Notes: generated by a model not told the origin, from the sequence alone. DNA of 63,199 nt, filler included, from Conidiobolus incongruus B7586 (GCA_000697335.1; 11 parts of 11 records of this genome joined end to end with filler, not necessarily neighbours in it), one strand, 5' to 3'. Shown: positions 2,367 to 63,199, counted from the whole stretch's first letter. A program made the numbers and translations.

Positions 2367-5027
2367 TTCAAGTATTCAAAACAAAATATTATATCACAAC
2401 TAAAGAATAATTGTCCTAAGTTCACGGTCCTCAGTACTCTTTAAATATTATTCCAACATTCCATTAATATAATAAATTTTCAACTATTTAATTGAATTAA
2501 TGCAGTTACAAAAGTCACATTTGAACAATTAGATGCTAAAATGATGCTATTAAATTGATTTTTAAGTATTAGCAAATACTCATCACCTTGAATGGTTTCA
2601 ATCGGCTTTTTTTACGCCCGATAGTTTTAGATTAATAAGTATTTCTCCTAAATATATTTGGCTGCGTGAATTAATTTAGATTTTAGAATTATATTTACGT
2701 ATACAGTTTTAATTAGCATTTGGGAATAAATTTAATCGGTGAAATATTCTAATAACTACACTCTTCTTTAATTTAAGAATAATATCATCTCAAGATACAA
2801 TAACTATTAATAAAAAATTCAATTAACTCATTATTTTAAATTGACTATTACTAAGATCAAATCAAAGCATCAATTAGCAATCAATGCTTGAGGTTCTATT
2901 TGGTGAAATTTTGATTATATGATTTAAGTCCAAATAGGTTCACTAGTTTATTTTAATCTCGCATTAAATTTATGCAATGGAATTCCACATTTCAATATCA
3001 TTTTCATTGTTAATTTGAAATTTTATTAAATACAATTAGAAAATGAACTTGAAGTGTATAAATACTTGGATGAACATATGCGGGATACTTATTTTGTAAT
3101 ACAAGGAATATATTCAAAATTATTCCTCTACAATTTAGGAATTTATTAAAAACTGACGGGCTTTTAATATGCATACTCCCAAAAAAATTTACATTTTACT
3201 GCAATTTGATAAATTTTAAAAAATAATATCATTTATATTTTCAATAATTTAATTAAATTTTCAAATCCTATGGCATAATCAGTCTACATAGTGATTTTTT
3301 CCAAATTTGATATTATGATAAAAATATATAATGTAATTGATCCAAAATATCAAGAAGAAATATATAATTAGTTGTATTTAATATCTGAAAATATAGGGAC
3401 ATTAATCAACTAAAATTAAATGACCAATTTTTTTATAAATATCTATTATCTCTTATTTCCAACCCATTTGACTTAAATTTAGTAGGTCAAAGCAAAATTC
3501 AAATTCAATGATAAGGAAGGTATAATAAAGATTATGAAAAATATTTAATATTAAACATGAAACATTCAACCATCCTTTTGTAATTTTTCTATATTTATTT
3601 CAATTATATTTCAACAGACATTTGAGACATAGTAAATTTGGATCGAAATCCTTCCTTTTCAGTTATATAAAGTCACAAAGTTTAATTATTAAATAAACAC
3701 AACAAATATCTATTAATATTAACTTTCACTCAATATTAAACATTTTTTTAGCCTAAATTCCAATATAACTTTGTTCAAGTTAAAAATCAAAATTATGTTT
3801 AATATTTTTAATTATTGAAATCCTTAAAATTTCAAAATTATAATTTTATATTTTAAATTTCAATAATAAAAATAATTTTTATTTAGAAATTTAACTCTAA
3901 TATGGACTTTAAAATATATAATTATTCATATTATTATAAAAATTTATTAAATCTATTTTAATTTGATAGAGTTTGCGTATTATTATTTATGTATTGAAAT
4001 TCAAAAGTAGTAATATAAATTTATCAGAAATCACATGGTATTAAAATTCTGTTCCAGAATATATTAAGAATTATGTCATTTTTGTATAAAAAACTACTTA
4101 TTATCCTAATATAAATAACTTTTGTTTAAATTTTCCATTAATTAAAATCCAGAATTATTAAATACATCATAAAACATTATTCATTAAATATAATGCAACT
4201 AAAACCATAAATCTTTACATTGATTTGTACATCGAAAATATAAATAAACTATGATAAAAGGGCCGATATTTAATACCAATAGCTGGTGATATATTGAAAA
4301 TAATCAATATACCTAACAAAAATCTTATAATTAATGACTGTAAAATACACAGTTGGAATCAGATTAATTGAAGTAATGATCAAGTAACTATCCTAAGTTA
4401 AGTAAATATAATTTAAGATAAATATATGTCAATATTATTTAAACAATTAATCTTCTATTGCGTCTGAAATTTATTGCAAAATATTTTATTGATATAAATA
4501 CTAGTTATTCTAGCTCAATGACATTATCATTTCTTCTAATTCTTTGAAAAGACGAACACAATTTTAAATGTAAATTGAAAAAATTTTGAATCAAATATCA
4601 TTTTAAGATCTAAAAATCCATTAAGTTTCTAAGAAATGTTCCAAATAAAATATGCCTAATTTTACAATATTATATATATTGGTATAATATAAAATCAAAA
4701 TCCAAACTAAAATTTATACTTTCAACCAATGAATGTATTGATTCAATAGAATCAATCTCATACACATATTAAATATGAAAATTTAATACAATTTTAAGAG
4801 GATTGTAAATTCAGAATTAAGTGAGGTTCTCAGTCATAACATTAAAAAAATAGAGATATTCGATATAAATAGATCATATTCTGTATTGGTGCTAGTTAAA
4901 TTGCCTTTGTGGAATAAGTTTTTTTAACATAGGTTTACCAAATATTAAAGGTAAAAATTATTAGAGCAGATTTATGTGTAATAAAATTATTTGATATGTA
5001 TTATCTGAATAATAAAAATATTATAAA

Positions 5028-6500
5028 TTATTTAGTTTCGTCGTTTAGTGAACCATTAGTCCGATTTGAAATTTTTAAATCCTTGTGTTGCAATGGTAAC
5101 AAGATAATAAAACTAGCAATAGCAAATATAGTCATCGAAATATATACCCATTGTAATCCTTTAAGGTATCCTGATTGATCAAGACTCAAATTCTCAGGAG
5201 AAAGATTAGATATATGAGATAGAAATTTGATAGCGATTTCAAATACTTCATGACTCACTTTGAAAGTTAGAAAGGAATCAATGTAATTGCTTAAATTGAA
5301 CTTTGGATGATAACACCCAAAATCCTCCAAGATGTCGAACAAATGTGACGTTTGATTTGACAATTGTAACTAAATGGGGCGATGTGTAAGATTTGGCTGC
5401 GGTTGTAATTGGCTAATATTCATATCAAGACCAATGCAATGAGCAATTAGTAACCAAGCTGCATTCCTATATGAAAGCTTTCATTAAAAATAGAAATGAG
5501 CCCTACCCCTGTACAAAATAAAATTGCTTCGATGAACAGAATAGGTTCGTAGACTGCTGTGTTACTAACAATAATTCTCCACAAAATACTCAAAACTATT
5601 AAAGAAAAGAGAAAAGATAATATTTTGAAACAAGAAACAGTGGCTGACTCCATTTATATAGTTTAAAAATAAATCGTCAGATAATAAATTAGTCCAAAAA
5701 TGTATATATCCTAGTAAAGAGGTGGTTACATCCAGATATGGTATTATGATTAAAATCTTCTAAAGGAATAACAAGATTAAGAGTAACTTTTCATTCGATA
5801 AGAGCAAATAAAATCACCAAAGCAGAGCCTACACACAATAGAACAATAATAGTGATAGAATTCCATGTATAAATGTGGCCATCCAAGTTAATATCAAATA
5901 AAAGACAAATAACTGAACTCATTAATACAGTCGATCCCAAGAAATTGATTTTCTTGGACTTTTCAATAATAGTTCGTGAAACTGGAAGAAATTTGACCAA
6001 TGCTACAAGCATTATAATATCAGCTCCATTAATGAGTGAATTTACCAAGAATTAGCGGTCTCATATAACATGATCAACGAGAGTATACCTCCAAAAAGGG
6101 GACTGACTATAACTGAAACGCTGTACACTGTAGAATACATGCTGAAATACTAGATTCTCTAATTTAATGGGATCATATGGAAATAACTATGCTCAAAATT
6201 GTTAAACAATCATCCAAATTTCTATCAATATCGTGCAAAATAATTAAAACGATATTTCTTAGGACAACACCATATCCAATTGATCTACAAAAAAACTATT
6301 TACAGTGAAAAGGAGGGTAATTCGTCTATCAAACTAACCATACAAATGATCATATAAAGGCTGGCAAGCTTATTCAATGATTATATTAGCCTTAATGGTC
6401 AATGAAACTTTCTTAAAGACCTTAATTTTGATATGATTGGTGGCAAAGTTATTGCCACAATATTCATATATAAAGTATTTAAAAAATTTACATACAAATA
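5028..6500 (-). pseudogene. Degenerate tandem paralogue of the MFS/DHA2 transporter
   Basis: Colinear ORF fragments match the intact copy (KINFLGSTVLMSSVICLLF vs KIDFLGSIVLMGSVVCLLL; GMQLGY; GLQWVYISMTIFAIAS vs GLQWVFISMIPFAIAS; LLPLQHK) but are broken by stops and frameshifts. The 5' boundary is approximate. Confidence 0.88.
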
Positions 6501-6971
6501 AGAGTTATTATTATTTTGATATTATTGCAAAATATAAAAAATTTACATAATAAATAAAACAATTTATGAGTTTAATAAAATAAATCTGTTATTATATAAT
6601 TTATCATTATTGAAAATTTTGATTTTGAAATTTATTTATATATTTTATTATATTTATATTATATAATATTTTCCAAATATTTTCCAAATATTTTTTATTT
6701 TAATACTATTCAATTTTAATTGTAATCCTTTTAAATTAATTAAAATTTATAAATAACTTATTGAAATTTTATTTTATTTATATTTATTATATTTAATTAG
6801 GAATATTATTTGAATATTAAAATACAAATTATATAAAATTTATCAAAACCAAAAAAATTCTGTTAGTGATTAATTATAAAAATTATTCAAGTTAAATATA
6901 TTATAAATAAACTATTCTTTATAGCTACAAAGTTATCCAAATATCTTAATATTGATTATATAAAAAATTAT

Positions 6972-10356: not shown

Positions 10357-12044
10357 ATGCTCACATCAAATACAATACCCATCGCTTTACCACGACTTCA
10401 GGACTACGACATAGATCCTCATAATGGTTTTTTGCCCTCTACGCCCCCTCTTTCGCGCTTGCCAGATAGCTACTATGACCCTTGGGAAGACGTTATAAAT
10501 AATTTAAACTCTCTCCTTTTGATCGGAAAGCTCAGAGACAAAGTTCAAAAGGTAAATTTTAAGCTTTCATTAATTGTTATATATTCTAAATATTCCTTAG
10601 TTGCCTTTGTTAGAAGTGGATAGGCTCAAAACCCTTAAAGAATACCAGAGAGCCTATGTGATCCTCGGGTTCATTACTCATGCCTATATATGGGGTAAAA
10701 ATGAGCCAGTTAAGGAGGTACTTTTTTCTGCTTTTATATTGTTTTTTCTGGTCACTTATTAAAGTTTTTTAGGTTTTACCTGCTTGTGTAGCGGTTCCTT
10801 TCTGCAAGGTTTCGGATTATTTGGGACTTCCACCTGTGATGACTTATGCTTCAAGTACTCTTTGGAACTGGCACCTTCTAGATCCTACTGAGCCTATTAG
10901 TGTTGATAATATGGTTATGACTTATACCTACAGTGGATCAACTGATGAAATGTGGTTTTATCTTATTTCTGTTCAAATTGAGCATTTTGGCGGAAAAGTG
11001 TTAGATAATATGATTAAATCGATCCAAGCTGCACAAAATTGGGATTTAGAAGGTCTTGCCAAAAATCTCGGCATTATAGCCGAAACAATTTCCTTAATTA
11101 ATAAGACTCTTTTAAAAATGCATGAGAAGTGTGATCCATATGTATTTTACTGGAAGGTTCGTCCTTATTTAGCAGGCTGGGAAAACATGCAGACCGCTGG
11201 TCTTCCACATGGAATCATTTATGAAGGTGTAGATTGTCCTGCTCCAATAATAAATCCGGATCAAGTTCCTCCTTCCCAATTTAGACAATACGCCGGAGGC
11301 AGTGCAGCACAGTCCTCTCTGATACAAGCTATTGATGTGTTTTTGGGAGTTAACCATTATCCTACCTCATCCGAATGGAGAGAGTGGAAAAAGAACCCAG
11401 AAAAATATAATCCCTCCAAGCACGTCAACTATTTAATGAAGATGCGCGACTATATGCCCAATTCCCACAGGCAGTTTTTATATGATTTGAAGTCTGCTTT
11501 CGATATAAGAGCCTTTATTGATCAATTGAAACGCGACATTTCATCGCCTATTATTGATAGAGTTGTAGCAAATTACAATTTGGCTGTTAACAACATTAAA
11601 GAGTTTAGGGATAAACATATCTCCATTGTTACGAGATACATTGTCCTTCCTGCAAAGAAAGGGCCTTTCCTTGGAAGTTACAACGTTGGTGTTACCGCCG
11701 AACAACCCCCTGAAACGATTACGGACAGTTCCAGCCACTCTTTGCCAACTGCATCACAAAATACTACCATTCATAAATCAGAACCTTCAACAACAAAGCA
11801 ATCAGGAGTATTACTTTCCAAGTCTCCTAATGGTGATATCTTATATCCTCAGCGCACTCCACATACTCTAGAGAGCACTATCCAACGTATGAATCGACTT
11901 GATTTCAGAAAAAAGAGTGACTCCAGCCATGGAATTGCTAAGCATGTTGCAGAAAATGACACTTTACGGGGAACTGGAGGCACTGACTTGATCCCCTTTC
12001 TCAAGCAGGCTCGAGATGAAACTTTTGAAACTCGCTTTACTTGA
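10357..12044 (+). CDS. BNA2: Indoleamine 2,3-dioxygenase (Bna2-like), 3 exons: 10357-10551, 10601-10717, 10773-12044; about 527 aa
   Basis: Motifs GFLP, HAYIWG, GLPPV..YA, RPYLAGW, YAGGSAAQS, FRDKH (proximal His) and RGTGGT..IPFLKQ; two GT-AG introns restore one frame. Confidence 0.92.
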
Positions 12045-17100: not shown

Positions 17101-18872
17101 AAAATATGCTCAATTTATAAAATTCTATATAAGTTTATAACCCTTTTATATATTAAATACAGTGATATTAATCTTGATTTGTTTTTATATTCCTAACTTT
17201 TATTGTTAAGGTTGTAGGGATATAGTCAACAGAATAAATTAAAAACTATTTAAACTTTAATCAATTATAATTGAATTAATAGATTCTTTAGTGAATTAAT
17301 ATTAGAAAAGGATAAAAGTTTAAACCTGTAAAACTCAAATGAAAATAATTAATTACATCGCTCAATTCCTAAATTTAGTATTTATTAATATATTTTGGGA
17401 CAAAATTGGTAAATTTTTATTTAGTTTAATTAAATTCGGGGCATAGATTTGTTAAAAAGAATATTTAATGTAAATATTAAGTAAAATGTATAAAAAGTTT
17501 TTTTGAATATCAAATATAATTAGAAACTCTTTTTCCAATATGTTGATATTTATTTTATCATTTAATATGGTTTATTTCAACTGTTATATTAGAGATTGAA
17601 ATAGCATATAATATAAGAAAATGTAATAGTTGTACAAAAAAGACTTAATATATTTAAATATATTTATATAAATAGATATTGTATTATTTGATTAGAGTCT
17701 CGATTAATATTTTTAATAATAAAATAAAATTGTTTGTCAGATGGTAAATATTGTAAGAAATAACATATAAGCATATTACTTAAAACAGTAATACCGACTT
17801 TGAAAGTTATTTCAATTGAATAAACAGATAAAATGTAAATAATTCAATATATTTGTTATTATTATGAAATCATTTATTTAGCGAAGTGTCCAAAGTAATT
17901 CCAGTATAATGCGATGAGTTTTATTCAACTTATGTCAATCGTTAATTATAATCCCTATAACACAGATTAAAGCTTTGAAAATTTCCATCTTAATATAAAA
18001 TTTATTTTAAAATTGGAAATTCAAGTCCATAGCATTAATTTGACGAAGGGGGTTTACAGAAAATATTAATATCGGATTTGAATGTCGAGTGATAAACCAA
18101 TTTAGAAGTTAACCGAGAAAATTACTTTTTAGATCCTTTTATAAATAAATTCTAATCTTAACTACTTTTCTAAATATTATCAAAACACTCTCCCACCTAA
18201 TACTTCTTATTGATTATTACAGTATCATTTATAGGAAATGCTGCTAAAAAATTAAATTTATAAGTAATTAATATATTTTAGTATTATTATTAATTTAATT
18301 AATTGCATTATATTGTAATTATTTTATTAAATAAGCTTATAAATTTTAATCATCTTTAATTTTTATATTTATTATTGAATTTGAATATATCAATTAAATT
18401 ATCAAATTTTAATTTATTTTTTTAAATAAACAAAATATTTTAAAATTTAATTATTAGTATAAAAATTAAATATTGGCAAAATTTTAAAATTAAAATTAAA
18501 TAAAAATATTGATATATGATTTATAAATATTAATATACTTTTTCATTATTAATAACTTTTTGCTATATTTTTGGTAGGTTTTTAATATCTAAAAAAAATT
18601 TTTTAAAGATTAAAATTTGATATTATATAAACCAATTTAATTTACTTATAGTAATCTTTTTCCTATTAATATATTTTTTAATTACCCAAAATAATTATAT
18701 TCACAAAGTTATAATCTAGTGAATATATTAAATATGATAGCTTTTTTAATTTTTTTATATAAAAAATGTTTTATTAGTTTAATTTTTTTTGTATTTTATA
18801 ATTATTATATAAAATAATAGATATATTTAATTTATATTAAACTATCAATTAAAAATAATTATATTTAAAAAT

Positions 18873-29271: not shown

Positions 29272-29913
29272 ATGCAGTATTTCACCTTATTTGTGACTTT
29301 TCTCTCTTCTCAATTTCTTAGTCAAGCTACTGGTACTGGTCGAGGTACATATGAAAATGGACCTGACGGTTATGGCGCTTGCTCTTTCCCTGCTGGAACC
29401 TACCCTAACTACGCCGGCGTCAGCCCAAGCACTTTCTCTAATTCTGCCATCTGTGGTGCTTGTCTCGAAGTAACTAATACTAGCAATAACAAGACCGTGG
29501 TAGTTAATGTTTCCGATCTTTGCAGTGGATGTGGCCCAGGTGATCTCAACATCAATGCCAATGCATTTAATCAAATTGGTGATCCTGCTTCTGGAAGCGT
29601 TCCAGTTTCTTGGAAGCAAATCAGATGTCCCGATATTAGTGGCAACTTCCTTTACCACTGGCAAGCTGGTAGTAACGAATGGTGGGCTGGATTACAAATT
29701 TTGAACGCTGCACAAGCTATAAAGAGCATTGAAGTCAATGTTAACAACCAATGGAAGCCTGCTTCCAGAAATAACAACAACGTCTGGATCATCAACGGTG
29801 CTACCAATCCTGCAAACATTCGTGTCACTGGATACGATGGAAAGGTTGTACAAGATTCATCCGTTCCCCTATTGGGCAGTGGTGGTAATGTCCCAAGCAG
29901 TGGTCAACTCTAA
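29272..29913 (+). CDS. Secreted expansin-like protein (DPBB domain + CBM63-like domain; EXLX-type), 213 aa, intronless
   Basis: Signal peptide; GACSF, CGACLEV, V.DLC.GC..GDL.I...AF..IG, GS..WWAGLQ..N....I.SIEV. Confidence 0.9.
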   Translation: MQYFTLFVTFLSSQFLSQATGTGRGTYENGPDGYGACSFPAGTYPNYAGVSPSTFSNSAICGACLEVTNTSNNKTVVVNVSDLCSGCGPGDLNINANAFNQIGDPASGSVPVSWKQIRCPDISGNFLYHWQAGSNEWWAGLQILNAAQAIKSIEVNVNNQWKPASRNNNNVWIINGATNPANIRVTGYDGKVVQDSSVPLLGSGGNVPSSGQL

Positions 29914-32764: not shown

Positions 32765-32872
32765 TACTATTCTTCTTTAATTTTTGAAGGAAAATAAATC
32801 AATAGTAAATTTTATATTGTTTTTTTAAATAACATTATTTTTAATTAATATTCTTAATAAAATTTAAGAAAA

Positions 32873-33171
32873 CCTATTATTATATATAATAATTATAAAA
32901 TATATAAATCAAAAATTATAAAAAAATTTTCAATAAAAAATAACTAGAAAAAACTACCTTATTTAGTATATTTTTTAGACTATAACCTATATAATTATAA
33001 TTGCTTTAAATAATTAAAACACTAGCTTACAAGAAAGAAAATTTTTACAAAAAAATTTAATTAATTTATGAAATATCAAATTTCAGTCCTTAATAAAAGA
33101 ATTATTTTTTAATTATTAAAAGTTTACTAAAAACATAACCAAAAGTTATTAATAATAAAAGGAACTATTAA
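32873..33171 (+). mobile_element. Hypermutated mariner (DD34D) transposase remnant, copy 1 (C-terminal part)
   Basis: Translates PIIIYNNYKIYKS...*KKLPYLVYFLDYNLYNY. Undoing C>T/G>A changes gives IIHDN...H...WEKLPHPAYSPDYNPCDY, with exactly 34 codons between the two inferred Asp codons (32888-32890 and 32993-32995). The C-terminus IKSLLKT*PKVINNKRNY resembles mariner LP..W.K.I.N.G.Y. Confidence 0.82.
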
Positions 33172-33636
33172 ATTTATAATTTATATTTATTTTTATATAT
33201 TATATATCAAAATATTTATTTATTTTAAATTGCAAAAAATTCCCATTATTTAAAATACAGAGTAATATTAACCAAATTATTCTTAATAAATTTATTATAA
33301 TTAACAGACCATAAAACCAAAAATAAAATGTATTATAAAAAATAAAAGGAATGATTAAATTAGAAAATATAACAGTTATTATAAATACAAAAGTTAAAAC
33401 CATTTAAAAAAATTAATATCATTAATATGTATTAATATTAATAATAAATTATTTTGCCAACTATCACCAACAACAGTGATTTAGGATTATAGTATATATT
33501 ATAAATATATAAAAACTAATAATATAACTATCTGTTGTAAGAACAAATTAAGAAATCAACTTTAAATTTATAAGGAAATAATTATATTGATGTATTTAAA
33601 AATATTCGAAATTTGTTTATTAAAGAACAGCTTATA

Positions 33637-44291: not shown

Positions 44292-45145
44292 TTTTTATAT
44301 TTTCGGTAATGACGAATTAAAATTTTTATTCGTATTTTTGATTTGTTAAATTCGCGAGTTTATTATTCATTAAATTGACTAAATTAATATAATTTCGTTT
44401 CAATTGAAAATCGAAATTATGGGATTGTTTGATTTAATGACATAATTATTTTACAATCTACTAAATTAATTCTTAGTCCTATGTTTAATATATACTAAGC
44501 AAGAGTAAGTTAACTAATATAGTTAATATTTGATAACTACATTCATAAAAAATAAAAAAATCCAAATTATATGATCTATTCCTATACTTTCCAACTATTT
44601 TAAATTAAAATTTCATAATTCTAAAAATTAAATTAAATTAATTCATATCCTTCTAGATTTAAAATATTTTTAATAAATATATTATAATAGTTGATAATTA
44701 ATAAACAAAAATATTAATAAAGATTGAATCAATTTCCTTTTATGATATATTATTTAGAATTAATTAATCATTGTTTTAAATATTAAAACATTAATATCAA
44801 TTTTTTTAATCAAATTTCTTATAAATTATTTCAATATATTATTATAATATAAATTAATATTAGTTTTTATAAATTATTATTTTCAACTTATATTAAGTTA
44901 TGATAATAATCTCAAGTCTTTTCAATATATTATGAACTTAATTATTAAATTATATACTATACTCATTATATATCAATATTATTATTAAGATATAATATCA
45001 AAATATATTAATAATTTTAATAATATATTGAAATAAATTTATATTTTATATTTTGTTAATTTAATTTTAGATCATTTTAAATATAATTTTTAAACTGATT
45101 TTTTTGAAAAAATTGTAATATTCTTACCTAAATATCTGATAATTT

Positions 45146-45925: not shown

Positions 45926-48480
45926 TATAGCTATCTGGTTTAAAATTTGATGAATATATCTAATATATTAGTTTTTTGTAACTAGATTGTTATAAATATC
46001 TTTTTATAAATATAATTTTATAAAATAATAGTTTATTATAGTTGATAATTAAAATATGTTTTAAAAACTATTTTAGGTAAAAATATATAATTTAAAATTA
46101 ATTAATTTCTTTTAAAATAAAAAAACAATAATATAGTCAATTATAATAGCTATAATTTGTTTATAAGTAAAATATTAATTTATTAATATAATTTATAAAA
46201 TTATAATATTGCAAAGCATTTTATAAAGAGATTTATAATTTTTTAATAATCTAAATTCAATATAAAAGATTTCGTCTTTAGTTATAATATGATAGATTTT
46301 ATTAAAATATAGTTATTTTAGTTATTTTTAAAAAATTATTAATTTCAAGGAATATATTTTATATATGATATTAACTATTATCAAAATATTTTAGTAATAT
46401 TCTAGTAAAATAGAGAGGTGCTTTTAATATATATCTTTTTATATTTGTAATATAACTCAATCTCGGAAATTTTGAAAATTTTTACCTTTATTCCATTATA
46501 GAAAATAAAGTTATTTAATTTTAAAAAAATTACAAATTAAATAATATATATTAAATAAAAATTAAGTATGAATAGTTTCATTTTATACAGAAATTATGAT
46601 TTAAATAATTTATTTATGATATTGTCTTTTGATGAATAAAATTATATAAAACTGGAAAGTAATATGAAATTTTTTTATACTTGTTACGAGTTATTGAGAT
46701 CAATAGAATCACTTAAACACTTAGATAATTGGAATATTATTTGCTAATATATAGCTATATGCATAATAAATCAATTAATTATTTATGATCTATACATAAT
46801 AAATGAAAATGATATTAGAATTGTCAAATTGGTTGAATATTATTGAAAATTTTAATAACCACAACCCGTTTTCAAACTGAATGATTTGTTTTGGAGTAGA
46901 GTAAATTAGAATTATATATAGTTATTATAATTTTATTAATACATAATAATATTGATGCTAGAAATTCTAAGTAAAAATATGGAGTAAATTATGGCTAAAA
47001 ACAATAATACCGAAAATTGTGATTGAATATGGTAATGAGAAAAAAATAATTACTATTAATAAACCATAATTATAATGAAATTTTTTCTATTTTCAAAAAA
47101 AATCTAACTATACTGGATCAAATTACAGACATCCTCAATTAACAAAAATAAGAATTTATTCCCATGTTCCAATATCGATCCGGGATAAAAAAATCAAATT
47201 GACTTAATTGGATTGACAAAATCTGCTGATTATGATGTTATACTGGTTTAAATATGAATTTTAAAAATTGGTAATCAAAGGTATAGATTCTTCCCTTTGA
47301 TAAGCAGTATTTTTTTTAATCTTTTATCTTTAGGATAGCATTTTTTCAACTCATTGTCATTGTATTTGAAAACCTACAAATTGATCCTAAAATGCAATAT
47401 AAGCCGGACTATAAATAAAATGTTGCTTCACTTTTTGATAGAAATATTTTCAAAAGGAGGTTTTGTGCTTGATTAAAAATTCATTAACAACAAATTGTGT
47501 GATTATCCTAGATTAAAAATAATATAATTAATGTTAATATCGAATTTGATACCGTAGATTAAGGAAAACCAATCAAATTTAACCAAATTAAATCATAAAA
47601 TACTAGATACAAATCAATCAAATGAAACTATTATATAATCATATTTTTTTACATTTGAATTAATCAATATAAATACACCCGAAATACATTTGCACATAAT
47701 TTTCATTAATCCAGTATAATAAACTAATAATTGTTGATCTATATTTTACTGAAATGGATGATATATTCAATAATGTAAAACCTTCTTGATTCTCTAATTA
47801 TTATTTAATATTTATAATGCAAATATTATTACAAAAATAATATATGATATTAAATGTGGATAATATATATTAACTTAAAAATTCATAATATGTTTCGCAT
47901 ATCGAGATGATTCTTTCGATATTATACACACTCATATTAACTCAATTAACCAAACCAATAATTTTACTCTACCATTTTATTCAATATGATTTTTTCTAAT
48001 TTACAATGTAATAAACCAACAATTCTTAATATATCAATTTCAATATGTTAAAAATCAAATAGTATTAATCTAATTAATATCAGTTATAATAATTTAATTC
48101 TAATATAAAAATTACTTAAATCATCTATATATAATTTAAATAAATTATTTTATTAAATATAATTTTTAATATTTTGAATTTTTATATATTTATTTTTCAA
48201 ATGTTATCATAAGTCTAATTTTCAGTATTTTTAAAAAAAAATTTTGTTTACCATAATAGTCCTAAAGTTAGCGAATTTAAACCAACAAAAGATATTTAAC
48301 CGTTAGTTGGGTACTAATTAAAATAGTATTTGCCCGAAAGTGTAATGTTGAAAGTGAAAATCCATTTAAAATAATATGTCAAAATAAAATTCTGTTTAAC
48401 AGATATATTTATTAAATTTGATATAAAAGTTAAAATTACTCTAAGTCGAGGTACTAATTTAATTTAGATTGACAAAAATA

Positions 48481-49461
48481 ATGATAGAGCCAGATAATAG
48501 CACAGCAGGATTGATAATTGGTATCATCGAATTTATTGTATCGACTCTAGCAGTATTTATCAATATCTTGCTCATGCATATACTGGTCAGAAGAATGAGG
48601 TTAATCCAAACTGATACTGTTATTTCGTTTATTTTATGTATTATCGATATTTCATACGGATTATATTCAGCGATGAATCTAGTTATTTCTTGGTCAACTA
48701 GTCATCTAATTTTTCAACAATCTGTCTTCTATTGTCAATTTAGTGGTTTTTTCTTTATGGTACTTGGAGCGTCGACAGTTGAAACCACTATGATTTTGGG
48801 CATGTTAAGATATCTAGCAATCTGTCATAACAAACTTTTTTCTATCAGATTTTGGGTACTTATCAATATTGGCTTCATTTTTTTCAATATAATTTTCGCC
48901 ATTTATCCTTTAATTAACAGGTCTTTTACTATGTTTCCTTCTCAAAAATACTGTGGCTTTGACATTACTACAGAAATATTACCGAATTTAATATATTATT
49001 TAATAGGAGGTGCTGCTTCTGTTAGTATCTGTTTAATGTTATTTTGCTATTATAAAATTGGAAGATATTATTCGAACTATATATATAAAATGCGAAATGA
49101 GAACCAAGGTTTTATCCCTATGCATCCAAAGGAAGCGATATTAAGTAAACCTAATTTAACGAATCAAGAACTGGTAATAGATCAATTCAAAACTGAGAAT
49201 AATATCAAAAGTTCATTGTTCAAGTTATATCTAATGATATCAATATATTTAATCCAAACAATACCTTTTTTAGGTATTCAAACCATATTTAAATTGCTGG
49301 GACAATACCCACCACCAATATTGGATAATATTGTTTCATTAATTTCACATTTTATACCTTTATCCAACCCCTTATTTATTTTATTTTTCCATGAAGAGAC
49401 GAATCAAGAATTGAAAGCAATGTTTATAATCTTTTGGTTCAGATTATTAAAATTATTCTAA
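48481..49461 (+). CDS. Seven-transmembrane class-A (rhodopsin-like) GPCR-like protein, 326 aa, intronless
   Basis: Seven hydrophobic helices; TM1 Asn, TM2 Asp, TM3-top Cys (YCQFSG) with ECL2 Cys (PSQKYC), LRYLAIC at the DRY position and NPLFI at the NPxxY position. The first ATG is at 48481 (the ORF track starts at an upstream TTG). Confidence 0.82.
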   Translation: MIEPDNSTAGLIIGIIEFIVSTLAVFINILLMHILVRRMRLIQTDTVISFILCIIDISYGLYSAMNLVISWSTSHLIFQQSVFYCQFSGFFFMVLGASTVETTMILGMLRYLAICHNKLFSIRFWVLINIGFIFFNIIFAIYPLINRSFTMFPSQKYCGFDITTEILPNLIYYLIGGAASVSICLMLFCYYKIGRYYSNYIYKMRNENQGFIPMHPKEAILSKPNLTNQELVIDQFKTENNIKSSLFKLYLMISIYLIQTIPFLGIQTIFKLLGQYPPPILDNIVSLISHFIPLSNPLFILFFHEETNQELKAMFIIFWFRLLKLF

Positions 49462-54188: not shown

Positions 54189-56367
54189 TTTCTACAATTG
54201 ATTTTTTGATCATATTTTTAAAAAACTACTATGTGATGATTTGTATATCAGGCAATTTATAAATGAGAATTTCAGATATTTTAGATTAAAACTCTCACCA
54301 ACTTTGATAATAATCTAATATATATTAAAACATTAAATAATATATTATTTCCAATCAAGTATAATTAATCTGGATTAATAAATTGATTCAATATCATTAT
54401 TAATGAAATGATCAAATAAAAGCAGAACGGCGTTGCACAATTTTATCAGATTTTTATAGTAATATTTTTTTAATATGAAAATTGACCAATTAAGAAATAA
54501 AAACTGTGATGAATTAAATATTTTAACACATAGTTGAATAATATTTGAAATCTAAATGATTTCTATTAAGTTTAATAAAGATAATAAAATTGATTTCTAA
54601 AATGAAAAAAAATAATTAATAATTCTATACAACAAACAATATAATTTATTCAAATTATTTATTTATTTTTTTATCTAATATTAAATAATGAAATTATAAT
54701 GTAAATCGATTGTTCACTATTGATAAACTCTCAAACTATCAAAAGTATTCAATATTTAAAAAAACATTGTAAATTGGGATACTATGAACATAAGTTACTT
54801 TATATAGTAATAATCGTTCAATTAAATGAGTCATTCTAAATCAATTTAGTTTGAGAAAAAAAGGATATTAGATCATGTATCAGAATAATTCCAAATTGGT
54901 TATATATAGTTCTACTTATTGTTATATCATATTTTATTCAATTTAATATTATTTTATATTAACTTCAGTTGAATTAATATTGTTTAAATAATTCAAACTA
55001 TCTGATTTGACCTTCTTTAGATAAATAAGTAATTATTTAATATTAATATATTATTTCAAATTTTGAAGTTTAAAATACAATAAAATATTTTTAGTCAGAT
55101 TAAGGCATATATGAAATTTTATCGTTTGATCATAGAGAAATGATTGTTTATGCATATTTTTCATTATATCAAATTTATAGTATACCTTATGTTTTAATTT
55201 TTTGCGATATCAGTAAAATTATATTTCAACATGAAATAGCGTTTAATTTTTATACAATAATATCATACAGGTTGATTCGGGAAAAGTAGACCCTGATCAA
55301 TTATTAACCTTTGAGCCACAGTTTCCTTTGAAATCTTAAGTTTTATTATTCTAAATTAAATTATTGTTAGTTAATTTTTAGCTTTAGACAATTAATAGAA
55401 ATTCATTAAATTTAATATAATAATATGAATGCTAGTTGTGTAAGGCGAATGTTTTGAATTATAATTATTTTTTAAACGATCTACAGAGGGTGATTTCAAT
55501 TGATCTATATATGATTTATAAAATAAACGATAATGTTAGTTATCATAATATAAAAAGAATTCATTAATATTAACTACTACTCAAATTATGTATATTATTG
55601 ATTGAAAAAGGTTGTTAAATTAAATAATATTGCAACTATTTTACCTTTACTCTTGAAATTATTTAATGACAGATTTTTTTAAAAACCAATTTGAATTTAA
55701 TACAAAAATTAAATATATAAAAATAAAAAATTATTAAACCAATACCCTCCTTTATTATTTATAACTTTTTGTTATATTTATAGCAAGCTGTTAACACCTA
55801 AAAAATAGTTCTTTTAATTAAGGACTGAAAGTGAATATTTCATAAGTTAATTTAATTTATTTATTGAAACTTTTATTTTTTATAATAACTTTTGATTAAA
55901 TAATAAGATTATAATTGCTTAGGGTGTAATTTAGTGAATATACTAGATATGTTACCCCTTTTAAATTATTTCTATTTTAGAAATTTTTTTATATCTTTAG
56001 ATAAATAGATTATATAATTTTATAAAAAATAATTAAAATTTCAAATTTAAATAAAAAAAATCTATTTAGAAATATTTATATTAGAAAAATATAAACCTTA
56101 TTATTAGTTTATTTTTCCTTTAAGACACTAAATATAAATAGCATATTATATTATAATTTATTGAAATAGTTAGTCTTTATTTCAATTGAAATTCTTTTTT
56201 TAAAATATATTAATAATTTCTTTTAGTTTAATCAAGAATTTTGTTTTTTTGTTATATAATTATATAAAATAATTATTATTTATATAATTAAATATTTTAA
56301 TTTAGATTTTTCAGTTTTTATATATATTAACATATTTTATTTAGCTATAACTATGTTAAATTTCTTT

Positions 56368-56467: not shown

Positions 56468-58977
56468 TATTTTATCGTATCAATTTATAATATAATAAGA
56501 AATTATTATTGGTGTAACAAAGGAAATTATTAATATAAGTAATTAAATTTAATATTATTATATTTTAATTAACTATCAATTATATATAAACTTAGAATAA
56601 TTAATTATACCTATATTAATAAATATAAAAGATATAAAGCAATTAATATTTTTAAATATAAATAAGTTATATTGAATTTATAATATTAAAATTCAAATAA
56701 GTTTAAAATTTTTAATATTAGTTTAGAATTTTTAAAATAATTTAAAATGAATTTATATTAACTTATTTGCTATATTTGCCTTTTTAAACAATAATACCAA
56801 ATAATTTCTAACTTTGTAATAAATTATAAATAGATAATATATTTTTATTTCAATACAATATTATTTTCATAGTAAATATAAAATATTTATAGTTGAATTA
56901 TATATTTCAAAAAAGTAAGTTTGAATGATACGTAATTGAAAATATATAGAAATATTTTTATATATTAAATAAATCTAAGGTAGATTTTGTCCTTAAAAAC
57001 AGATCTATATTACAAAAATTTTCCAAAATAAATATTTTATTTTTATTACTCATTTTATTACTATAAATATAATATTAATAAATTAAGAATTATATTTCTA
57101 AAACGATAATTTTCTATTAAAGTTATTGTTTGTTTAAATATTTTTTGGTTAAAGTAAATTAAAATATAAATATATTACAACCAATGTAAAAATTTAAAAT
57201 AATCAAATAAAGATCAAGACTATAATGTAGATAGGATACAATTAGTTGATTATATTATATTTTCCTAATTTTATAATTTTTATGAGAAAATAATATATTT
57301 ATTTTATTCAGTTAATAACTAGCATTTATTGGTTGATCATATATTATATATTTGAAAAGTGATAAAATATTTTATATTAGCTTAATGATAAGTATTAGTT
57401 TTACTATTTAAAAATAGATTGCATTCAAGAAATCATTTTCCTATCGCTATTCTATAAATAGTCGTATATCAACCAATAATTTTAATATCATTATTAAGCT
57501 TTATCAATTGTTTATTTTTAGAAGATTTGGTTTTAAATATGCATAACAAATAGAAATTAAATTTAAAATCCAACTACTTAAAATGATATGAAGGAAATTA
57601 AGGATAATTAAATATTGTCAAATTCACTGGTGAATTTAATCGTTTTAAATTAATTTTAAATTTCTTTAGGATTAATTTTTAAAAACTGTACTTTCAATAA
57701 ATTACTGATAATTTAAAATACTATTGATAGAATATTTGTATATTGTTAACATATTTGGTAATGTGAATTTACTGAAATAAATTAAATTTGCTCTATCCTT
57801 TAATAAAAAATCAAATTTATAAATGTCACTTCAGTGAATATAAGAAATCATATAACTATTATTATTTTAGAGTGAATTTATATTTATCTAGTAAAACAAC
57901 GAATTACAAATCTAATAATAAATCATGTTAATGTAAATTGTAATAAATTACTTATTTTAAAAATATTTAATTCTATAATAAAAGAAAACAAACGTGTAAG
58001 AAAATTTTATATAATCAGTAATATTATAATTCCATTTAATATGAAATTTATTTTAATAATTGGCATGGTTTCAAAAATATCCTTATATGTATATTAATGC
58101 AAGGTTGAACCAATTTTTCTTATACACTTGCTTTATATAGAGAATTAAATTAATTATTAGATCACTATTGAAAAATCAGCAACTGTAAATTATTAACTAA
58201 TTTGGCAAATTTTAATACTTATAATATATATTATCCCATTTAGTTTTGTCTTAGTTAATTATTTAACATTAATTGAACGTTTTTGTTAACTTTCTTATAT
58301 ATTATTAATAGCTAAAATTAAATAAAATGATTATAATAATACCAAAGTCATTTTAAATAGATAAAATATTGTAAACCTTAAATGGATATAATTTCATTTA
58401 TTTTGACTTTGAAATCTGAATTCCATCATAATAAAGATTATAAAAATAAAAATAATATGGGCATAGGAAATCTGTACAAATAATTCATCTAGCTTCAGCT
58501 TAAAAAGTCAGCATCAACATTTTCTTAATTCTAATTTTGATTTATAGCTTTAATAATTCGTCTAAAAAACTAGAATATTTGCAGTTTGAAAATCATTATA
58601 TGATTTTTAAGTTTGATATTAAATTTTATATTTCTTAATAATATAGCAGATATAATATTGTAGGGTTATATAAAGGTAAATTTAGAATTGAAATTTAATA
58701 ATAAATATATCTACTTTATTTTTGAAAAACAATATTAATTGAATATTTATTGATTTTATATATATAATGAAGATGTTTTATTATAATTATTTCCAATTAT
58801 TATTTTATTTTATTTTTATACACTAAAATTTTTTAAAACTTCAACTTCCAAGTATACATTGACTAAATAAATTTAAATATATTTACAATTTGCATGAAAA
58901 TATTTGTTTAAAAATTGTATATATAAACTATAGTTGTATATTGAATAGGATATCATCAAATGAGAATTTAGCCTCAA

Positions 58978-59316
58978 ATGTTGAAATTTAAGTTTTTATC
59001 AATTATACCATTTATTTCAGCTTTGTTAGCTCAAGACTCTGACTGTCCTGATTACGGAGTTAAAAAGCTTGGATACCTAGCTGAAGTTGATGCAAACGCA
59101 GTTTTGTGTTACAACCAAGATGATAACTACTGTCCAATCGAATTAGAAACCCCTCCTCCGTATTTTACAAAACAAGAATGTAAGTTTACTCATGAAGAAA
59201 CATCTGAAGATGGTCGAGTCACTCGAGTATACAAATGCGCATTGTATTCACAGTTGGATGATTTTAAAGCAGATATGGAATCTAAAGGTTGGAAATGTTA
59301 TCGTAGAATGCCCTAA
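58978..59316 (+). CDS. Small secreted cysteine-rich protein of unknown function, 112 aa
   Basis: Signal peptide (MLKFKFLSIIPFISALLA/Q), six Cys, coding-like GC in an AT-rich background and TATATAAA about 55 bp upstream. Confidence 0.78.
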   Translation: MLKFKFLSIIPFISALLAQDSDCPDYGVKKLGYLAEVDANAVLCYNQDDNYCPIELETPPPYFTKQECKFTHEETSEDGRVTRVYKCALYSQLDDFKADMESKGWKCYRRMP

Positions 59317-60017: not shown

Positions 60018-60849
60018 ATAAAATTAGGTAAATTTTGAAAATTTAATAAAATTCAATATAAATAAATATAGCAAAAAAATAATATAATAATAGTAATTAT
60101 TTTTTAAAATATTCCAATAATATCTTTTATTATAAATAGTTATTATTTAAATTATCATAATTATATCATCTTATATTTAATGAATTAATAAGATAAAATA
60201 ATAAAAATTCTTAGAAAAAAAACTTTTATAATTTTAGCTATATTATAAAAAAAGGCTATATATAGTAATTAATTTATTTATTTGAATTTTTTATACGAAA
60301 AAATAAAATTGGTTTGCTATCAAAATAAAATATAATATATATATAATCTATTATTTTATTATTAATCCATTGAATATAATATTATTAATGTTTTACAAAT
60401 ATTACTTTATTATATAACTTAACTATATTTTTTTATTTTTTTAAAAAAATATAATCTATTATGAATTGCTATTTTATTAGTAAATATATTATTATTTGAT
60501 AATGTTCTTAATAATTATAATATTATTTAATTAAATTTAATAAACTTATTTAAATTTATCCTATTTTTTTAATTTTCAATTTGACTAATTTTGGTTTTAG
60601 AAAATATTAGTCACCTAGCCAAAAAAATCAAAAAGATTAATTATAAAAAAATAACTTATTGATTTTTTTAATTTATGAAATCAACTATTTTCTCTTACAA
60701 ACTATCAAAATAAGGTTAATGGTTTATTATTATATTTCACAATATTATAACTTTATTTTATATTAATTGATTTTTATTTTACATTAAATATCATATAAAT
60801 CTATTAGTAAAAACATTACTTTTAAGCTTTATCTTGTTTTTTTTCTTTT

Positions 60850-61542
60850 ATGCCATTTATTATTAATATTAGTAACAATAATAAAGACTCCCTTGAACTA
60901 TATTTGATAAAAGCTATACTTAGTTGGTTAAGGCAAAAGAAAAACTATGAATTTTAGTATTTTAACAAGTTAAATGCTTCTTTTCAAATATATTATTTTA
61001 TCACTATTTTAGAAGGAATAGATATTATAAAGTTAAGAAAAAAGCTTGATAAAATATTTAATCATGTAAGAACCCTTATTTACAAATTTAAAACTGCTGA
61101 ACAAATTCTAACAAGTAAATAAAATAATAGAAATAACCCTTTATTTATAATAATTAATATTTTTATAACATAAGATAATTTAATTTTTAAAACCTCTAAT
61201 ATAATTCCCATAGCTTTTTTATCATATAACTAATCTTATTTTGAGGAATTAAATCTTTTAAACAATAAATAAAATAGTAGTAACTCTTATATTTCATTAT
61301 CCTTTTTAAGTAAAAATTTTAAAAATATAAGAAATAATAAAAAAAGAAGGAATAATACCTAATTTTCCTTCTTTTTTAAAGTTATGAAAGAAAATATATA
61401 AGAGCAAAATGAAATCTTAAGACAAAAAATTAAGCTAGAATAATTATAAAGAGAATATTAGTTATAATTATTAAAACAACAATAATTTCTAATTAAAAAA
61501 CTTTTATAATTAATAAAGAGAAATTTTGATAAGAGTAATTAG
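60850..61542 (+). pseudogene. Harbinger accessory ORF (probable Myb/SANT-like N-terminus, C-terminal coiled coil), inactivated by point mutations
   Basis: 231 codons in one frame from ATG to TAG with 13 internal stops, all TAA/TAG. Read as Gln, the C-terminal ones give ENIQEQNEILRQKIKLEQLQREYQLQLLKQQQ. The Myb/SANT assignment is inferred. Confidence 0.7.
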
Positions 61543-61629
61543 TTTATATAATCTTTATTATAAAACAGAATATAATCGAAAGAATATTTTTAAAATAATC
61601 AACAAAATATTAATTTATAATAATATCAC

Positions 61630-62860
61630 TACTTATGATTTATTTAAATTAATAAAGTTATTATATATATTGATTATATTTTGCTTATTATCATTAATAT
61701 TAATATTTTTATTAATTTCTTTTTTAGTTCCTTTTTCTAAATTATAATCTTTTTTATTAAAAAAATAAAGTTATAAATAAAAATATTTATATATATAAGT
61801 ATAATAACAAATTGATAAGTTTTTGCATTTTATATATAATAAAGTAATAATCTTAAATAAAGAAAAATAACTTTCCAAATACCAAAAGTGTTTTTTATTA
61901 TAAATTATCTTCTATTATATATAATATTAATTTCTTTTATTTTTTACTTTATAAGGGATAAAATAACTTTAATTTAATTTCTTTGAATTAGAGTAATTAT
62001 AAATATATTATTAATATAACTTATTAAAAACAAAAATTAAATAGAGATATCCATTTATTATTATTAATAAATTAACTTATATATGAAATAATTATATTAT
62101 TTACTATTATTTGCAAGAATATATTCCCTTTGTTTAAAGTATTTATTTGATTTATTGAATAATTTAAATATTTTTAAAATATCAGAGTTATGATATAATT
62201 TAGGTTTTCTAAACTTAAAATATATAAATTTATTTAAAAATAATATAATCACGATATATTAAAAGCTATATATGTTTTTTCTATTATAATATAACTTGGT
62301 ATAAAATATAAAATAATTTTAAATATAATATAATTACTATTTAAATAACCAATATAGTTATTAAAAGGGAGTAGTTTTAAATAAGATTCCTCTATATTAT
62401 GATTATATTCTAGCTAAATTATTTGATTATTTAATTTCTCTTTAATAAAGTATATTATCTTTTTAATATATAAAATAATAATTCCTTCTTTTATTCAGAA
62501 TTTTTCTACTATATCTGTTAAATATGTTTTTTTGTAACCTAGTTAGTAAAAAGTAATAATTAATTGAATCTCTAAATATATTTGTTTTTTTTTGATAAGA
62601 AGAAATAAAATTTATATATAATTGTAAAATATTAGTAAATTAAAAAAACTTAGCTTTTGATATCTTTATTTATCTTTTAAAATCATTTTCTTCAGAAAGA
62701 AATTTATATATAGATTATTATAATAAATATGATATATATAGCAAATGTGGAGATATATATCTTAAGGTTTTTAATTTATATAATAATCTTAAAATTGCTG
62801 GATAATTTAAGTTTTCATCAAAGTTAACCATTCCAAGGGTAATAAGGAATTCTATCATTT
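61630..62860 (-). pseudogene. Harbinger (DDE_Tnp_4-type) transposase, inactivated by C>T/G>A transitions; one probable intron near 62050-62104; ends approximate
   Basis: Ordered motifs, observed (reverted): LEIQLIITFY*LG (YRLG), II*L (I.WP), NYIGYLNSNYI (NCIGYLDG.HI), YYNRKNIYS, RKPKLYHNS (GKPGSCHDS), YILAN (YILAD), KNTFGIWK (ENTFGIWK), IYNFI (.HNF). Confidence 0.87.
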
Positions 62861-63199
62861 TTATTATGCTAGATATAATAAAAAAAATAAAACTAATAAG
62901 ATTATTTCAATAAATACTCTATATTTTTTAATTTGAGAAAAGGAATACTTGAAAAACTTTACTATGATCATAATTATTTTAGAGTAGATTATAGGAAAAA
63001 ATCATTGAATTTTTTTTAAATTATATTTAAGCATATTTTTAACATTTATCAAAAAAACTAGGAAAATCAATAATTAGGATAAATTTGAGTTAGCCTAATA
63101 TAAAGTATTTTTTTGATTTTTTAATTAAATATAATAATTATATAATATAATTCTTAATTTTATTTAAACTTTATTAGTTAATTATAAAATAAATATAAT

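What the first reader, a model, noticed from the sequence alone, without database searches (positions are those of the whole stretch)
60850..62860. RIP-like genome defence: a whole Harbinger element rewritten by C>T/G>A transitions with frames largely intact
Seen: the last contig has no convincing ORF in the track, yet the minus strand carries Harbinger transposase motifs in the right order, and the lost conserved residues are explained by C:G>T:A changes. Examples are His CAT>TAT, Cys TGT>TAT, Asp GAT>AAT, Gly GGA>AGA/AAA, Trp-Pro TGG CCA>TAG CTA and Arg CGA>TAA. Changes occur on both strands, mostly CpA>TpA and TpG>TpA, with few indels. Known: this is the hallmark of repeat-induced point mutation (RID/DIM-2 dependent in Neurospora), documented in Ascomycota, with RIP-like patterns in some Basidiomycota. 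Inference: the host genes point to an early-diverging (Zoopagomycota-like) fungus, so this may be a RIP-equivalent system outside Dikarya. Ancestral states are reconstructed from family consensus, not from an intact copy.
Basis: partly seen in the sequence, partly recalled or inferred. Interest (0 to 1): 0.9.

Follow-up and report, generated by a model that had tools for sequence, protein, structure and literature searches.

The report
C-to-T eroded transposon family in Conidiobolus
A dead, multi-copy jumping gene in what is likely a Conidiobolus fungus, far from the moulds where repeat-induced point mutation (RIP) is established, differs from its copies mainly by C-to-T type changes and has lost CA and CG pairs that ordinary non-coding DNA in the same assembly keeps, likely the scar of transposon-targeted DNA methylation rather than of classical RIP.

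Summary
Window 60542-63096 is a 2,555-bp dead PHIS (Harbinger-like) DNA transposon with terminal repeats and an AAT/AAT target duplication, which fits the Pangu group. Its copies in raw assemblies differ from it at 713 of 1,023 places by transitions, evenly on both strands. CpA/CpT is 0.56, against 1.29 in intergenic DNA of the same GC, 1.18 in genes and 1.25 in a pseudogene; a second repeat family gives 0.55. One host gene is sister to Conidiobolus coronatus, so outside Dikarya. It is not clean RIP: modelled loss runs CpG, then CpA, CpT, CpC, with CpA only about 1.4-2.2 times CpT; RIP indices are barely positive; this copy also carries transversions and frame breaks. Best reading (0.5): repeat-targeted CG and non-CG cytosine methylation by a Dim-2/DNMT1-type enzyme, on top of AT-biased drift. 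True homology-triggered RIP stays possible (0.2). No genome was held, so RID/Dim-2 genes, per-site context and timing are untested. An index-based RIP signal was already reported for Zoophthora in the same order (PMC11105155).

The parts
60542..63096 (.). Whole dead PHIS DNA transposon (Pangu-type ends), 2,555 bp, 15.2% GC, multi-copy
   Evidence: Loose ends of other copies pile up at 60564 and 63101; repeats and target duplication; composition
60542..60563 (+). Left terminal inverted repeat, eroded by transitions
   Evidence: 17 of 22 identical to the right arm, 4 transitions all towards A/T on the left, 1 transversion; first seen as pair I2. Alone it is not above chance in this AT-rich contig; the support is table 7
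63075..63096 (-). Right terminal inverted repeat, begins AG
   Evidence: six contigs with mixed flanks leave the stretch at 63101 in X1 and in X3
60539..60541 (+). Left 3-bp target-site duplication AAT
63097..63099 (+). Right 3-bp target-site duplication AAT
61743..62810 (-). Broken DDE transposase gene (Harbinger/HARBI1-like); all three catalytic positions read Asn, Asn, Lys; frame changes near 62600 and 62298; probable short introns in 62110-61940 (inferred); the start may lie up to about 60 bp further upstream
60868..61500 (+). Second, convergent ORF-like frame; no database match
   Evidence: 12 stops in 211 codons against 25 and 36 in the other frames; Pfam blank
32767..33201 (.). Fragment of a second, unidentified repeat family with the same signature (CpA+TpG 15, CpT+ApG 30, CpG 0), on a contig with a G-alpha gene
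55705..56141 (.). Second repeat family fragment (16, 36, 0), on a contig with a prephenate dehydratase gene
18480..18871 (.). Second repeat family fragment (15, 18, 0; the weakest of the three)
5019..6600 (-). Control: decayed paralogue of the MFS transporter gene at 762-2375, 67% identical, without the signature
   Evidence: CpA/CpT 1.25, GC 29%; transitions 280, transversions 215
10773..12044 (+). Host marker: indoleamine 2,3-dioxygenase exon, sister to Conidiobolus coronatus

Best explanation
This is a dead, multi-copy PHIS transposon whose copies differ mainly by C:G/T:A transitions and which lacks the CpA and CpG that intergenic DNA keeps, likely because the host methylates cytosines in repeats in CG and non-CG contexts with a Dim-2/DNMT1-type enzyme and those cytosines are then lost as C-to-T changes over time. 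Shown: element anatomy, many diverged copies, transition excess on both strands, repeat-confined CpA and CpG loss, a second family with the same mark, an unaffected pseudogene. Inferred: the rate order CpG, CpA, CpT, CpC (model fit), an added background of AT-biased drift, the host's genus (one gene). Untested: the enzyme, the methylation itself, and whether the changes arise in vegetative growth or around zygospore formation.
For: Transitions are 713 of 1,023 variable places in X1, 713 of 1,028 in X2, 716 of 1,010 in X3 (one sample). The C>T to A<>T rate ratio is 14-16 among copies against 3.4 in the MFS pseudogene pair, and C>T to C>A is 8.2-8.7 against 3.4. CpA:CpT is 119:212 in the element against 2231:1725 in 30 kb of intergenic DNA (p = 9e-13); CpG:GpC 2:22 against 116:202 (p = 0.004); second family 46:84 and 0:7. 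None of 36 overlapping 1.2-kb AT-rich windows elsewhere falls below 0.93. Context-free loss to the same GC gives CpA/CpT 1.02-1.05 and CpG-only excess gives 1.01, not 0.56; six fits give CpG 1.3-2.5, CpA 1.0-1.5, CpT 0.64-0.93, CpC 0.27-0.58 events per site. Ordinary decay lies on top: 13 of the 40 best-supported differences shown (of 1,150) are transversions and 19 are G/C in this copy only or nearly so, which points to a long history. Precedent: Zymoseptoria Dim2 methylates transposon CG, then CA and CC, and raises C>T at CA in mitosis (PMC8016269, passages); Phycomyces has DIM2 and DNMT1 with CG and CHH methylation on transposons (PMC11258239, passages); Dim-2 is said to exist in early-diverging fungi (PMC7862722, passages); Entomophthora, Entomophaga and Zoophthora encode proteins with two DNA-methylase domains, over 1,200 aa in E. 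muscae (PMC11105155, passages).
Against: No methyltransferase gene or methylation was seen: no genome is held. PMC11258239 calls 5mC scarce in Zoopagomycota. In Zymoseptoria CG sites were not mutated fast and CT was almost unmethylated, unlike the order fitted here. The large-methylase orthogroup of PMC11105155 is listed for three other genera, not Conidiobolus. C. coronatus was scored no_rip, with AT-rich k-mers not enriched in its repeats (PMC12543289 supplements). The context fit assumes a host-like ancestral composition; no intact copy or close homologue was found. The copy spectrum is an unpolarised union over many contigs laid at 80% likeness or better, the control is one pair that diverged partly under selection, and the C>T to T>C ratio among copies (6.2, my arithmetic) is what equilibrium AT-biased drift would also give. 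CpG counts are small.
Confidence: 0.5

Rival explanations
1. A true RIP equivalent: duplicated DNA is recognised by homology, likely around zygospore formation, and mutated C-to-T in bursts by a RID-like enzyme, over several rounds.
For: CpA depletion confined to repeats in two families; both strands hit; the whole family looks decayed, since only 8 of the 40 best-supported rows have other copies keeping G/C where this copy lost it; the left terminal repeat lost 7 G/C by 7 transitions, most likely after insertion. RIP index 24.2% in Zoophthora radicans and a methylase orthogroup sister to RID at 12-14% identity (PMC11105155).
Against: CpG is lost as fast as or faster than CpA, and CpA is only about 1.4-2.2 times CpT. 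Product index 1.05, substrate index 0.99, composite 0.05, short of the strict cut-offs that I recall. RID-dependent RIP was found only in Ascomycota (PMC4352252, abstract); RIP-like k-mer signatures were unique to Ascomycota among 1,239 genomes and C. coronatus was no_rip (PMC12543289). The linked MFS duplicate is untouched, but at 67% identity it is too diverged to be a fair test.
Confidence: 0.2
2. No defence at all: an old, AT-rich element family drifting under the genome-wide AT-biased mutation that keeps intergenic DNA at 16% GC, with the dinucleotide pattern inherited from the ancestral element.
For: Element GC (15.2%) equals intergenic GC (15.9%). Among copies the C>T to T>C ratio matches the equilibrium ratio for that GC (arithmetic). 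Private transversions, back-changes and frame breaks show age. The second family's pairwise counts fit drift by themselves.
Against: The CpA/CpT ratio is inverted in two unrelated repeat families but not in intergenic DNA, genes or a pseudogene, and simulation of context-free loss does not invert it. Two intact DDE_Tnp_4 genes have CpA/CpT of 1.17 and 1.08. C>T outruns A<>T four times more than in the pseudogene. Motifs stay alignable, and a transversion-only model fits much worse (10-13 bits against 22-26).
Confidence: 0.2
3. A cytidine deaminase of the AID/APOBEC type edits transposon DNA.
For: C>T on both strands in all 3' contexts.
Against: The 3' neighbour decides the loss; there is no TpC or other 5' preference against intergenic DNA (NpC shares 0.122, 0.200, 0.268, 0.150 against 0.125, 0.249, 0.201, 0.171). 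A cut-and-paste element has no long single-stranded intermediate (recalled).
Confidence: 0.05
4. The last contig comes from an ascomycete contaminant with ordinary RIP.
For: The contig bears no host gene; only one gene, on another contig, was placed on a tree. Three runs under the same species label from two other studies hold next to none of its words (no proof of absence).
Against: About 850-870 contigs per run of the holding sample lie on it, too many for a trace contaminant (inference). The same signature sits on contigs that carry host-style genes. The context order is unlike CpA-led RIP.
Confidence: 0.03

Closest known systems
Dim2-dependent transposon methylation and mitotic C>T mutation in Zymoseptoria tritici (PMC8016269, passages)
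   Same: C>T loss confined to transposons, CpA depleted, CG and non-CG contexts involved, no sexual cycle needed
   Different: There CG is methylated but little mutated and CT is spared; here CpG is nearly gone and CpT is hit. Enzyme and methylation are not shown here, and the host is a zygomycete
Repeat-induced point mutation (RIP) of Neurospora and other Pezizomycotina, RID and DIM-2 pathways (PMC12543289 sections 1-4 of 11 parts; PMC13297926 passages)
   Same: C:G>T:A transitions in repeats on both strands, CpA/TpG depleted, whole family dead
   Different: Broad context with CpG at the top, weak RIP indices, much ordinary decay; RID, premeiotic timing and homology trigger untested
Index-based RIP signal in Entomophthorales (Zoophthora radicans 24.2%; PMC11105155, passages)
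   Same: Same order of fungi, same proposal of RIP-like activity outside Dikarya
   Different: That work used 1-kb composite indices; here the evidence is copy-level spectrum and context against internal controls, in a Conidiobolus
Dnmt1-subfamily-linked CpA, CpT and CpG C>T signatures in fungal transposons (PMC4352252, abstract)
   Same: Species-specific dinucleotide signatures of C>T loss in transposons
   Different: Ten Dikarya genomes only; RID-dependent RIP found only in Ascomycota
Pangu group of the PHIS superfamily (PMC4482050, passages and 30 of 35 rows of Table S3)
   Same: ANT target duplication, repeats of 11-40 bp starting AG, two ORFs, length in range
   Different: Dead and eroded; clade membership not tested; none of the 30 rows seen is a zygomycete

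Membership tests
PHIS (Harbinger-like) DNA transposon | DDE transposase of the DDE_Tnp_4/HARBI1 type | tested here: met
   Glocal codon alignment to P0127, 25.3 bits, above all 400 shuffles and 90 other chunks; P0127's C-terminal part is DDE_Tnp_4 at 6e-32. Direct Pfam and homologue searches blank
PHIS (Harbinger-like) DNA transposon | Terminal inverted repeats that bound dispersed copies | tested here: met
   (loose ends at both ends)
Pangu group | ANT target-site duplication; repeats 11-40 bp starting AG or GG | tested here: met
   AAT/AAT and a 22-bp repeat starting AG; definition from PMC4482050. One full copy only
Pangu group | Second ORF | tested here: inconclusive
   Frame with fewer stops, 12 against 25 and 36; no match found
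Pangu group | Transposase falls in the Pangu clade | not testable with these tools
   No Pangu transposase or close relative could be fetched
PIF/Harbinger in the strict sense | TWA target-site duplication | tested here: not met
   With the repeat starting one base further in, the flanks read ATA and TAA and do not match; TWA from PMC4482050. A flank mutation cannot be excluded
RIP (RID-dependent) | C:G>T:A transitions dominate among repeat copies, both strands | tested here: met
   713 of 1,023 places
RIP (RID-dependent) | Confined to repeated DNA | tested here: met
   CpA/CpT 0.56 and 0.55 in repeats; 1.18-1.29 in genes, pseudogene and intergenic DNA of this window
RIP (RID-dependent) | CpA is the preferred target over other contexts | tested here: inconclusive
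   Model fit puts CpG first and CpA 1.4-2.2 times CpT; per-site context among copies could not be obtained
RIP (RID-dependent) | Standard product, substrate and composite indices clearly positive | tested here: inconclusive
   1.05, 0.99, 0.05 for the element; contig composite 0.02 against -0.28 to -0.58 for the other 10 contigs
RIP (RID-dependent) | RID/Masc1 gene present and required | not testable with these tools
   No genome held
RIP (RID-dependent) | Premeiotic timing and trigger by homology | not testable with these tools
   Needs crosses or passage experiments
Dim-2/DNMT1-linked transposon methylation with C>T decay | CG and non-CG cytosines both lost in repeats only | tested here: met
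Dim-2/DNMT1-linked transposon methylation with C>T decay | 5mC on the repeats and the enzyme's gene | not testable with these tools
   No methylome, no genome
Passive CpG-only 5mC decay | Loss restricted to CpG, CpA/TpG not depleted | tested here: not met
   CpA/TpG is depleted; simulated CpG-only excess gives CpA/CpT 1.01 against 0.56 seen

The most novel reading that the evidence does not exclude
Conidiobolus has an active, homology-triggered, RIP-equivalent mutator with a broad CpG/CpA target. It would push repeat-directed mutagenesis back to Zoopagomycota, either as the ancestral form of Dikarya RIP or as an independent invention without RID, and it would have been missed because RIP indices fail in genomes whose intergenic DNA is already 84% AT.
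Probability: 0.2. Interest if true: 0.85.

Novelty: new variant of a known kind. Interest (0 to 1): 0.5.

Why it matters
A kingdom-wide survey (PMC12543289) restricts RIP-like signatures to Ascomycota and scores Conidiobolus coronatus as no_rip, while one paper (PMC11105155) proposes RIP in Zoophthora from indices alone. This locus gives copy-level evidence, with internal controls, that repeats in a close relative of C. coronatus undergo a context-specific C-to-T erosion that includes CpA. It also shows why index and k-mer screens would miss it in an AT-rich genome, and offers a simple statistic (CpA/CpT in repeats against intergenic DNA) that does see it. Whether mutagenic repeat defence predates Dikarya becomes testable in a culturable fungus by a methylome, a methyltransferase inventory and a passage experiment.

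Tried and rejected
No whole genome is held, so no genome-wide copy set or methyltransferase search. Transposase frame, stops read as X: Pfam blank at E up to 1 for 4 of 4 frames and no relevant family for 9 of 9 pieces; homologue search blank whole and for residues 319-378; 1.84 billion representatives blank; solved structures one chance hit; pairwise BLASTP with L017 E = 0.073; frame-wise local score 24.4 against shuffle maximum 22.7 of 300 and 23.1 of 138 other frames, and with frameshifts allowed 24.6 against 24.6 of 100 shuffles, not significant. Only the glocal alignment passed; mixed transition-plus-transversion models score as well as transition-only ones there, so it excludes only a transversion-only history. 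Motif scans for intact relatives: viral contigs 0; metagenome contigs 16 of 16 hits were chance; prokaryote genomes 1 hit, an animal-type HARBI1 contig in a MAG; PF13359 in 5 of 178 genomes of that phylum gave nothing closer; plasmids, phages and PDB blank for the L017 protein. No RNA holder listed. Run X5 (same species label, other study) lays one 38-bp piece only; this does not prove absence. A complete per-site list of copy differences, which would give context directly, was not obtained; only 40 of 1,150 rows were shown. Two further weak repeat pairs in the window (44645-44862 with 45996-46208; 25552-25704 with 35897-36053) look like AT-rich chance alignments and were dropped. The terminal repeat alone is not significant: 69 overlapping 22-mer pairs in the contig match as well. 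Rejected: CpG-only decay and context-free drift as sole cause of the dinucleotide pattern; a TpC-type deaminase signature. Literature: 8 searches found no paper reporting RIP-like change in Conidiobolus; Bewick et al. 2019 was not read and is known only through PMC7862722 and PMC11258239. The supplement of PMC5751038 gave no per-species RID table in the 2 of 4 places shown. Earlier-findings look-ups for this genome and for look-alike sequence gave nothing relevant.

Full report
Window and host. The window is 11 contigs joined by N-linkers; the finding lies on the last, 60018-63199, 13.9% GC, without a host gene. No whole genome is held. The indoleamine 2,3-dioxygenase exon at 10773-12044 has Entomophthora, Massospora and Neoconidiobolus as best named hits; its top hit's cluster holds the Conidiobolus coronatus protein, and in a 27-row tree the window groups with it at 100/100, 79% identity, apart from three ascomycete rows. 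So the host is likely a Conidiobolus other than C. coronatus (Entomophthorales, Zoopagomycota). This rests on one gene on another contig.

The element. Ordinary searches do not see a transposase. A motif scan retrieved one intact HARBI1-type gene (L017; DDE_Tnp_4 at 6e-32) and a longer cluster member, P0127. A codon alignment of P0127 that allows frameshifts and introns scores 25.3 bits on the minus strand, 7.0 on the plus strand; maxima were 21.7 and 20.5 in 200 + 200 shuffles and 15.9 in 90 other chunks. The three catalytic motifs and the C-terminal motif fall in order. Transition-only models score 21.6-25.6, mixed models 21.4-25.5, transversion-only models 10.0-13.2. A purely local version of the test was not significant. 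The frame changes near 62600 and 62298, and 62110-61940 is interrupted, probably by short introns (inferred). The path drawn by eye has 10 stops in 296 codons against 31 and 34; a convergent plus-strand frame at 60868-61500 has 12 in 211 against 25 and 36.

Ends and copies. Four runs of one sample hold the stretch. At 80% likeness 869, 865 and 848 contigs of X1, X2 and X3 lie on it, about half under 90% identical; long pieces differ at 4-19% of positions, apart from those that match exactly. Loose ends pile up at 60564 and 63101. The arms 60542-60563 and 63096-63075 match at 17 of 22, with four transitions, and are flanked by AAT on both sides. An ANT duplication, repeats of 11-40 bp starting AG and two ORFs define the Pangu group; strict PIF/Harbinger has TWA (PMC4482050). 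The element is therefore 60542-63096 and likely Pangu-type; clade membership was not tested.

Spectrum. In X1, 713 of 1,023 variable places are transitions: C>T 151, G>A 137, A>G 220, T>C 205. 65% of the contig's 443 G/C sites have a transition variant, 12% a C>A type variant; 6.5% of 2,739 A/T sites have an A<>T variant. The C>T to A<>T ratio is 14-16 in three runs, against 3.4 for an MFS gene and its decayed paralogue on contig 1. Caveats: the counts are an unpolarised union over many copies, the runs are one sample, and the control pair diverged partly under selection. The ratio of C>T to T>C among copies, 6.2, is what AT-biased drift at this GC would give, so the spectrum alone does not prove a defence. 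Of the 40 best-supported rows shown (of 1,150), 13 are transversions, 19 have G/C in this copy and A/T in nearly all others, and 8 the reverse, 7 of them in CpT. So most copies are as eroded as this one, and this copy has also aged in the ordinary way.

Context. This is the decisive part. Counting both strands, CpA/CpT is 0.56 in the element (119:212), 0.55 in three fragments of a second repeat family at contig ends (46:84), but 1.29 in 30 kb of intergenic DNA of the same GC, 1.18 in genes and 1.25 in the pseudogene; p = 9e-13 against intergenic, and 0 of 5,000 resamples reach it. No 1.2-kb AT-rich window of 36 elsewhere falls below 0.93. CpG is 2 in 2,555 bp (p = 0.004 against intergenic). 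Simulated context-free loss or CpG-only excess leaves CpA/CpT at 1.01-1.05. Six fits from two assumed starting compositions give CpG 1.3-2.5, CpA 1.0-1.5, CpT 0.64-0.93, CpC 0.27-0.58 events per site. The left repeat differs from the other copies' loose-end consensus (6 contigs, agreement 0.74) by seven transitions, two in CpA, four in CpT (one assumed), one in CpC (table 7, by eye). There is no 5' TpC preference. Standard RIP indices are marginal: 1.05, 0.99, composite 0.05, though the contig is the only one of 11 with a positive composite. In the second family's core, 53 of 221 ungapped columns vary by transition and only 6 G/C columns are invariant; drift could give those counts, but not the context.

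Mechanism. The pattern is repeat-confined, strand-symmetric C>T loss, strongest at CpG and CpA, weaker at CpT and CpC, laid over ordinary decay. I read it as the footprint of repeat-targeted methylation by a Dim-2/DNMT1-type enzyme (0.5). Zymoseptoria Dim2 methylates transposon CG, CA and CC and drives C>T at CA in mitosis (PMC8016269, passages), although CG there is not mutated fast. Phycomyces carries DIM2 and DNMT1 and methylates transposons in CG and CHH (PMC11258239, passages); the same paper calls 5mC scarce in Zoopagomycota. A true RIP equivalent (0.2) would explain the CpA loss and the dead family, but not so well the CpG-first order and the small CpA excess. Pure drift (0.2) does not reproduce the inverted CpA/CpT ratio unless two unrelated ancestors had unusual composition. 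Enzyme, methylation and timing are all untested.

What is known. PMC11105155 (passages) already reports a RIP index of 24.2% in Zoophthora radicans, methylases with RID-like domain layout in three entomophthoralean genera, and says that RIP may be active outside Dikarya, with major caveats. PMC12543289 (parts 1-4 of 11, passages and supplement rows) finds RIP-like signatures only in Ascomycota and scores C. coronatus no_rip. PMC4352252 (abstract) links CpA, CpT and CpG signatures to Dnmt1 subfamilies and finds RID-dependent RIP only in Ascomycota. PMC5751038 (passages) finds Masc1/RID homologues in Dikarya and notes that one Conidiobolus species is transposon-rich. Eight literature searches found no report of this in Conidiobolus. 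Earlier notes of this scan describe similar patterns in Endogonales and Dimargaritales; they are unchecked and are not counted as support.

Verdict. Observation partly confirmed, interpretation partly supported. A real, repeat-specific, CpA-including C-to-T erosion in a zygomycete: a new variant of a known kind, not shown to be RIP. Interest 0.5; the RIP-outside-Dikarya reading has probability 0.2 and would deserve 0.85.

Noticed in passing
window 18480-18871, 32767-33201, 55705-56141: Three fragments, 69-73% alike, of an unidentified repeat family at contig ends; no CpG left in 1,264 bp; no coding motif seen in six frames of the two fragments translated.
   Followed up: partly
window 1-600: 8% GC stretch with CpA+TpG 17, CpT+ApG 31 and no CpG, weakly matching 14145-14238; probably a third eroded repeat.
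   Followed up: partly
window 762-2375 and 5019-6600: MFS transporter gene with a neighbouring frameshifted paralogue, 67% identical; used as control.
   Followed up: yes
window 20919-21663 (-): Gene with a BED zinc finger (Pfam 1.7e-6) followed by sequence that recalls the N-terminus of hAT transposases (recalled), with normal dinucleotide content; possibly a domesticated transposon gene.
   Followed up: no
window 29233-29913 (+): Expansin-like protein with DPBB and expansin C-terminal domains and a hydrophobic start.
   Followed up: no
window 48463-49461 (+): 332-aa hydrophobic protein without a Pfam match above cut-off; by eye it resembles a seven-helix receptor.
   Followed up: no
window 58972-59316 (+): Small cysteine-containing protein with a hydrophobic start and no Pfam match.
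   Followed up: no
L017-L020 (G001): A bacterial MAG holds contigs with eukaryote-type HARBI1 and other DDE_Tnp_4 transposase genes, likely animal contamination.
   Followed up: partly
P0005, P0128-P0130: JGI/IMG records hold proteins in the same 90% cluster as the C. coronatus indoleamine 2,3-dioxygenase.
   Followed up: no
window 60018-60541: Left flank of the element is 9.5% GC with CpA/CpT 0.79 (19:24) and is also covered by other contigs; it may be another eroded repeat or low-complexity matching.
   Followed up: no
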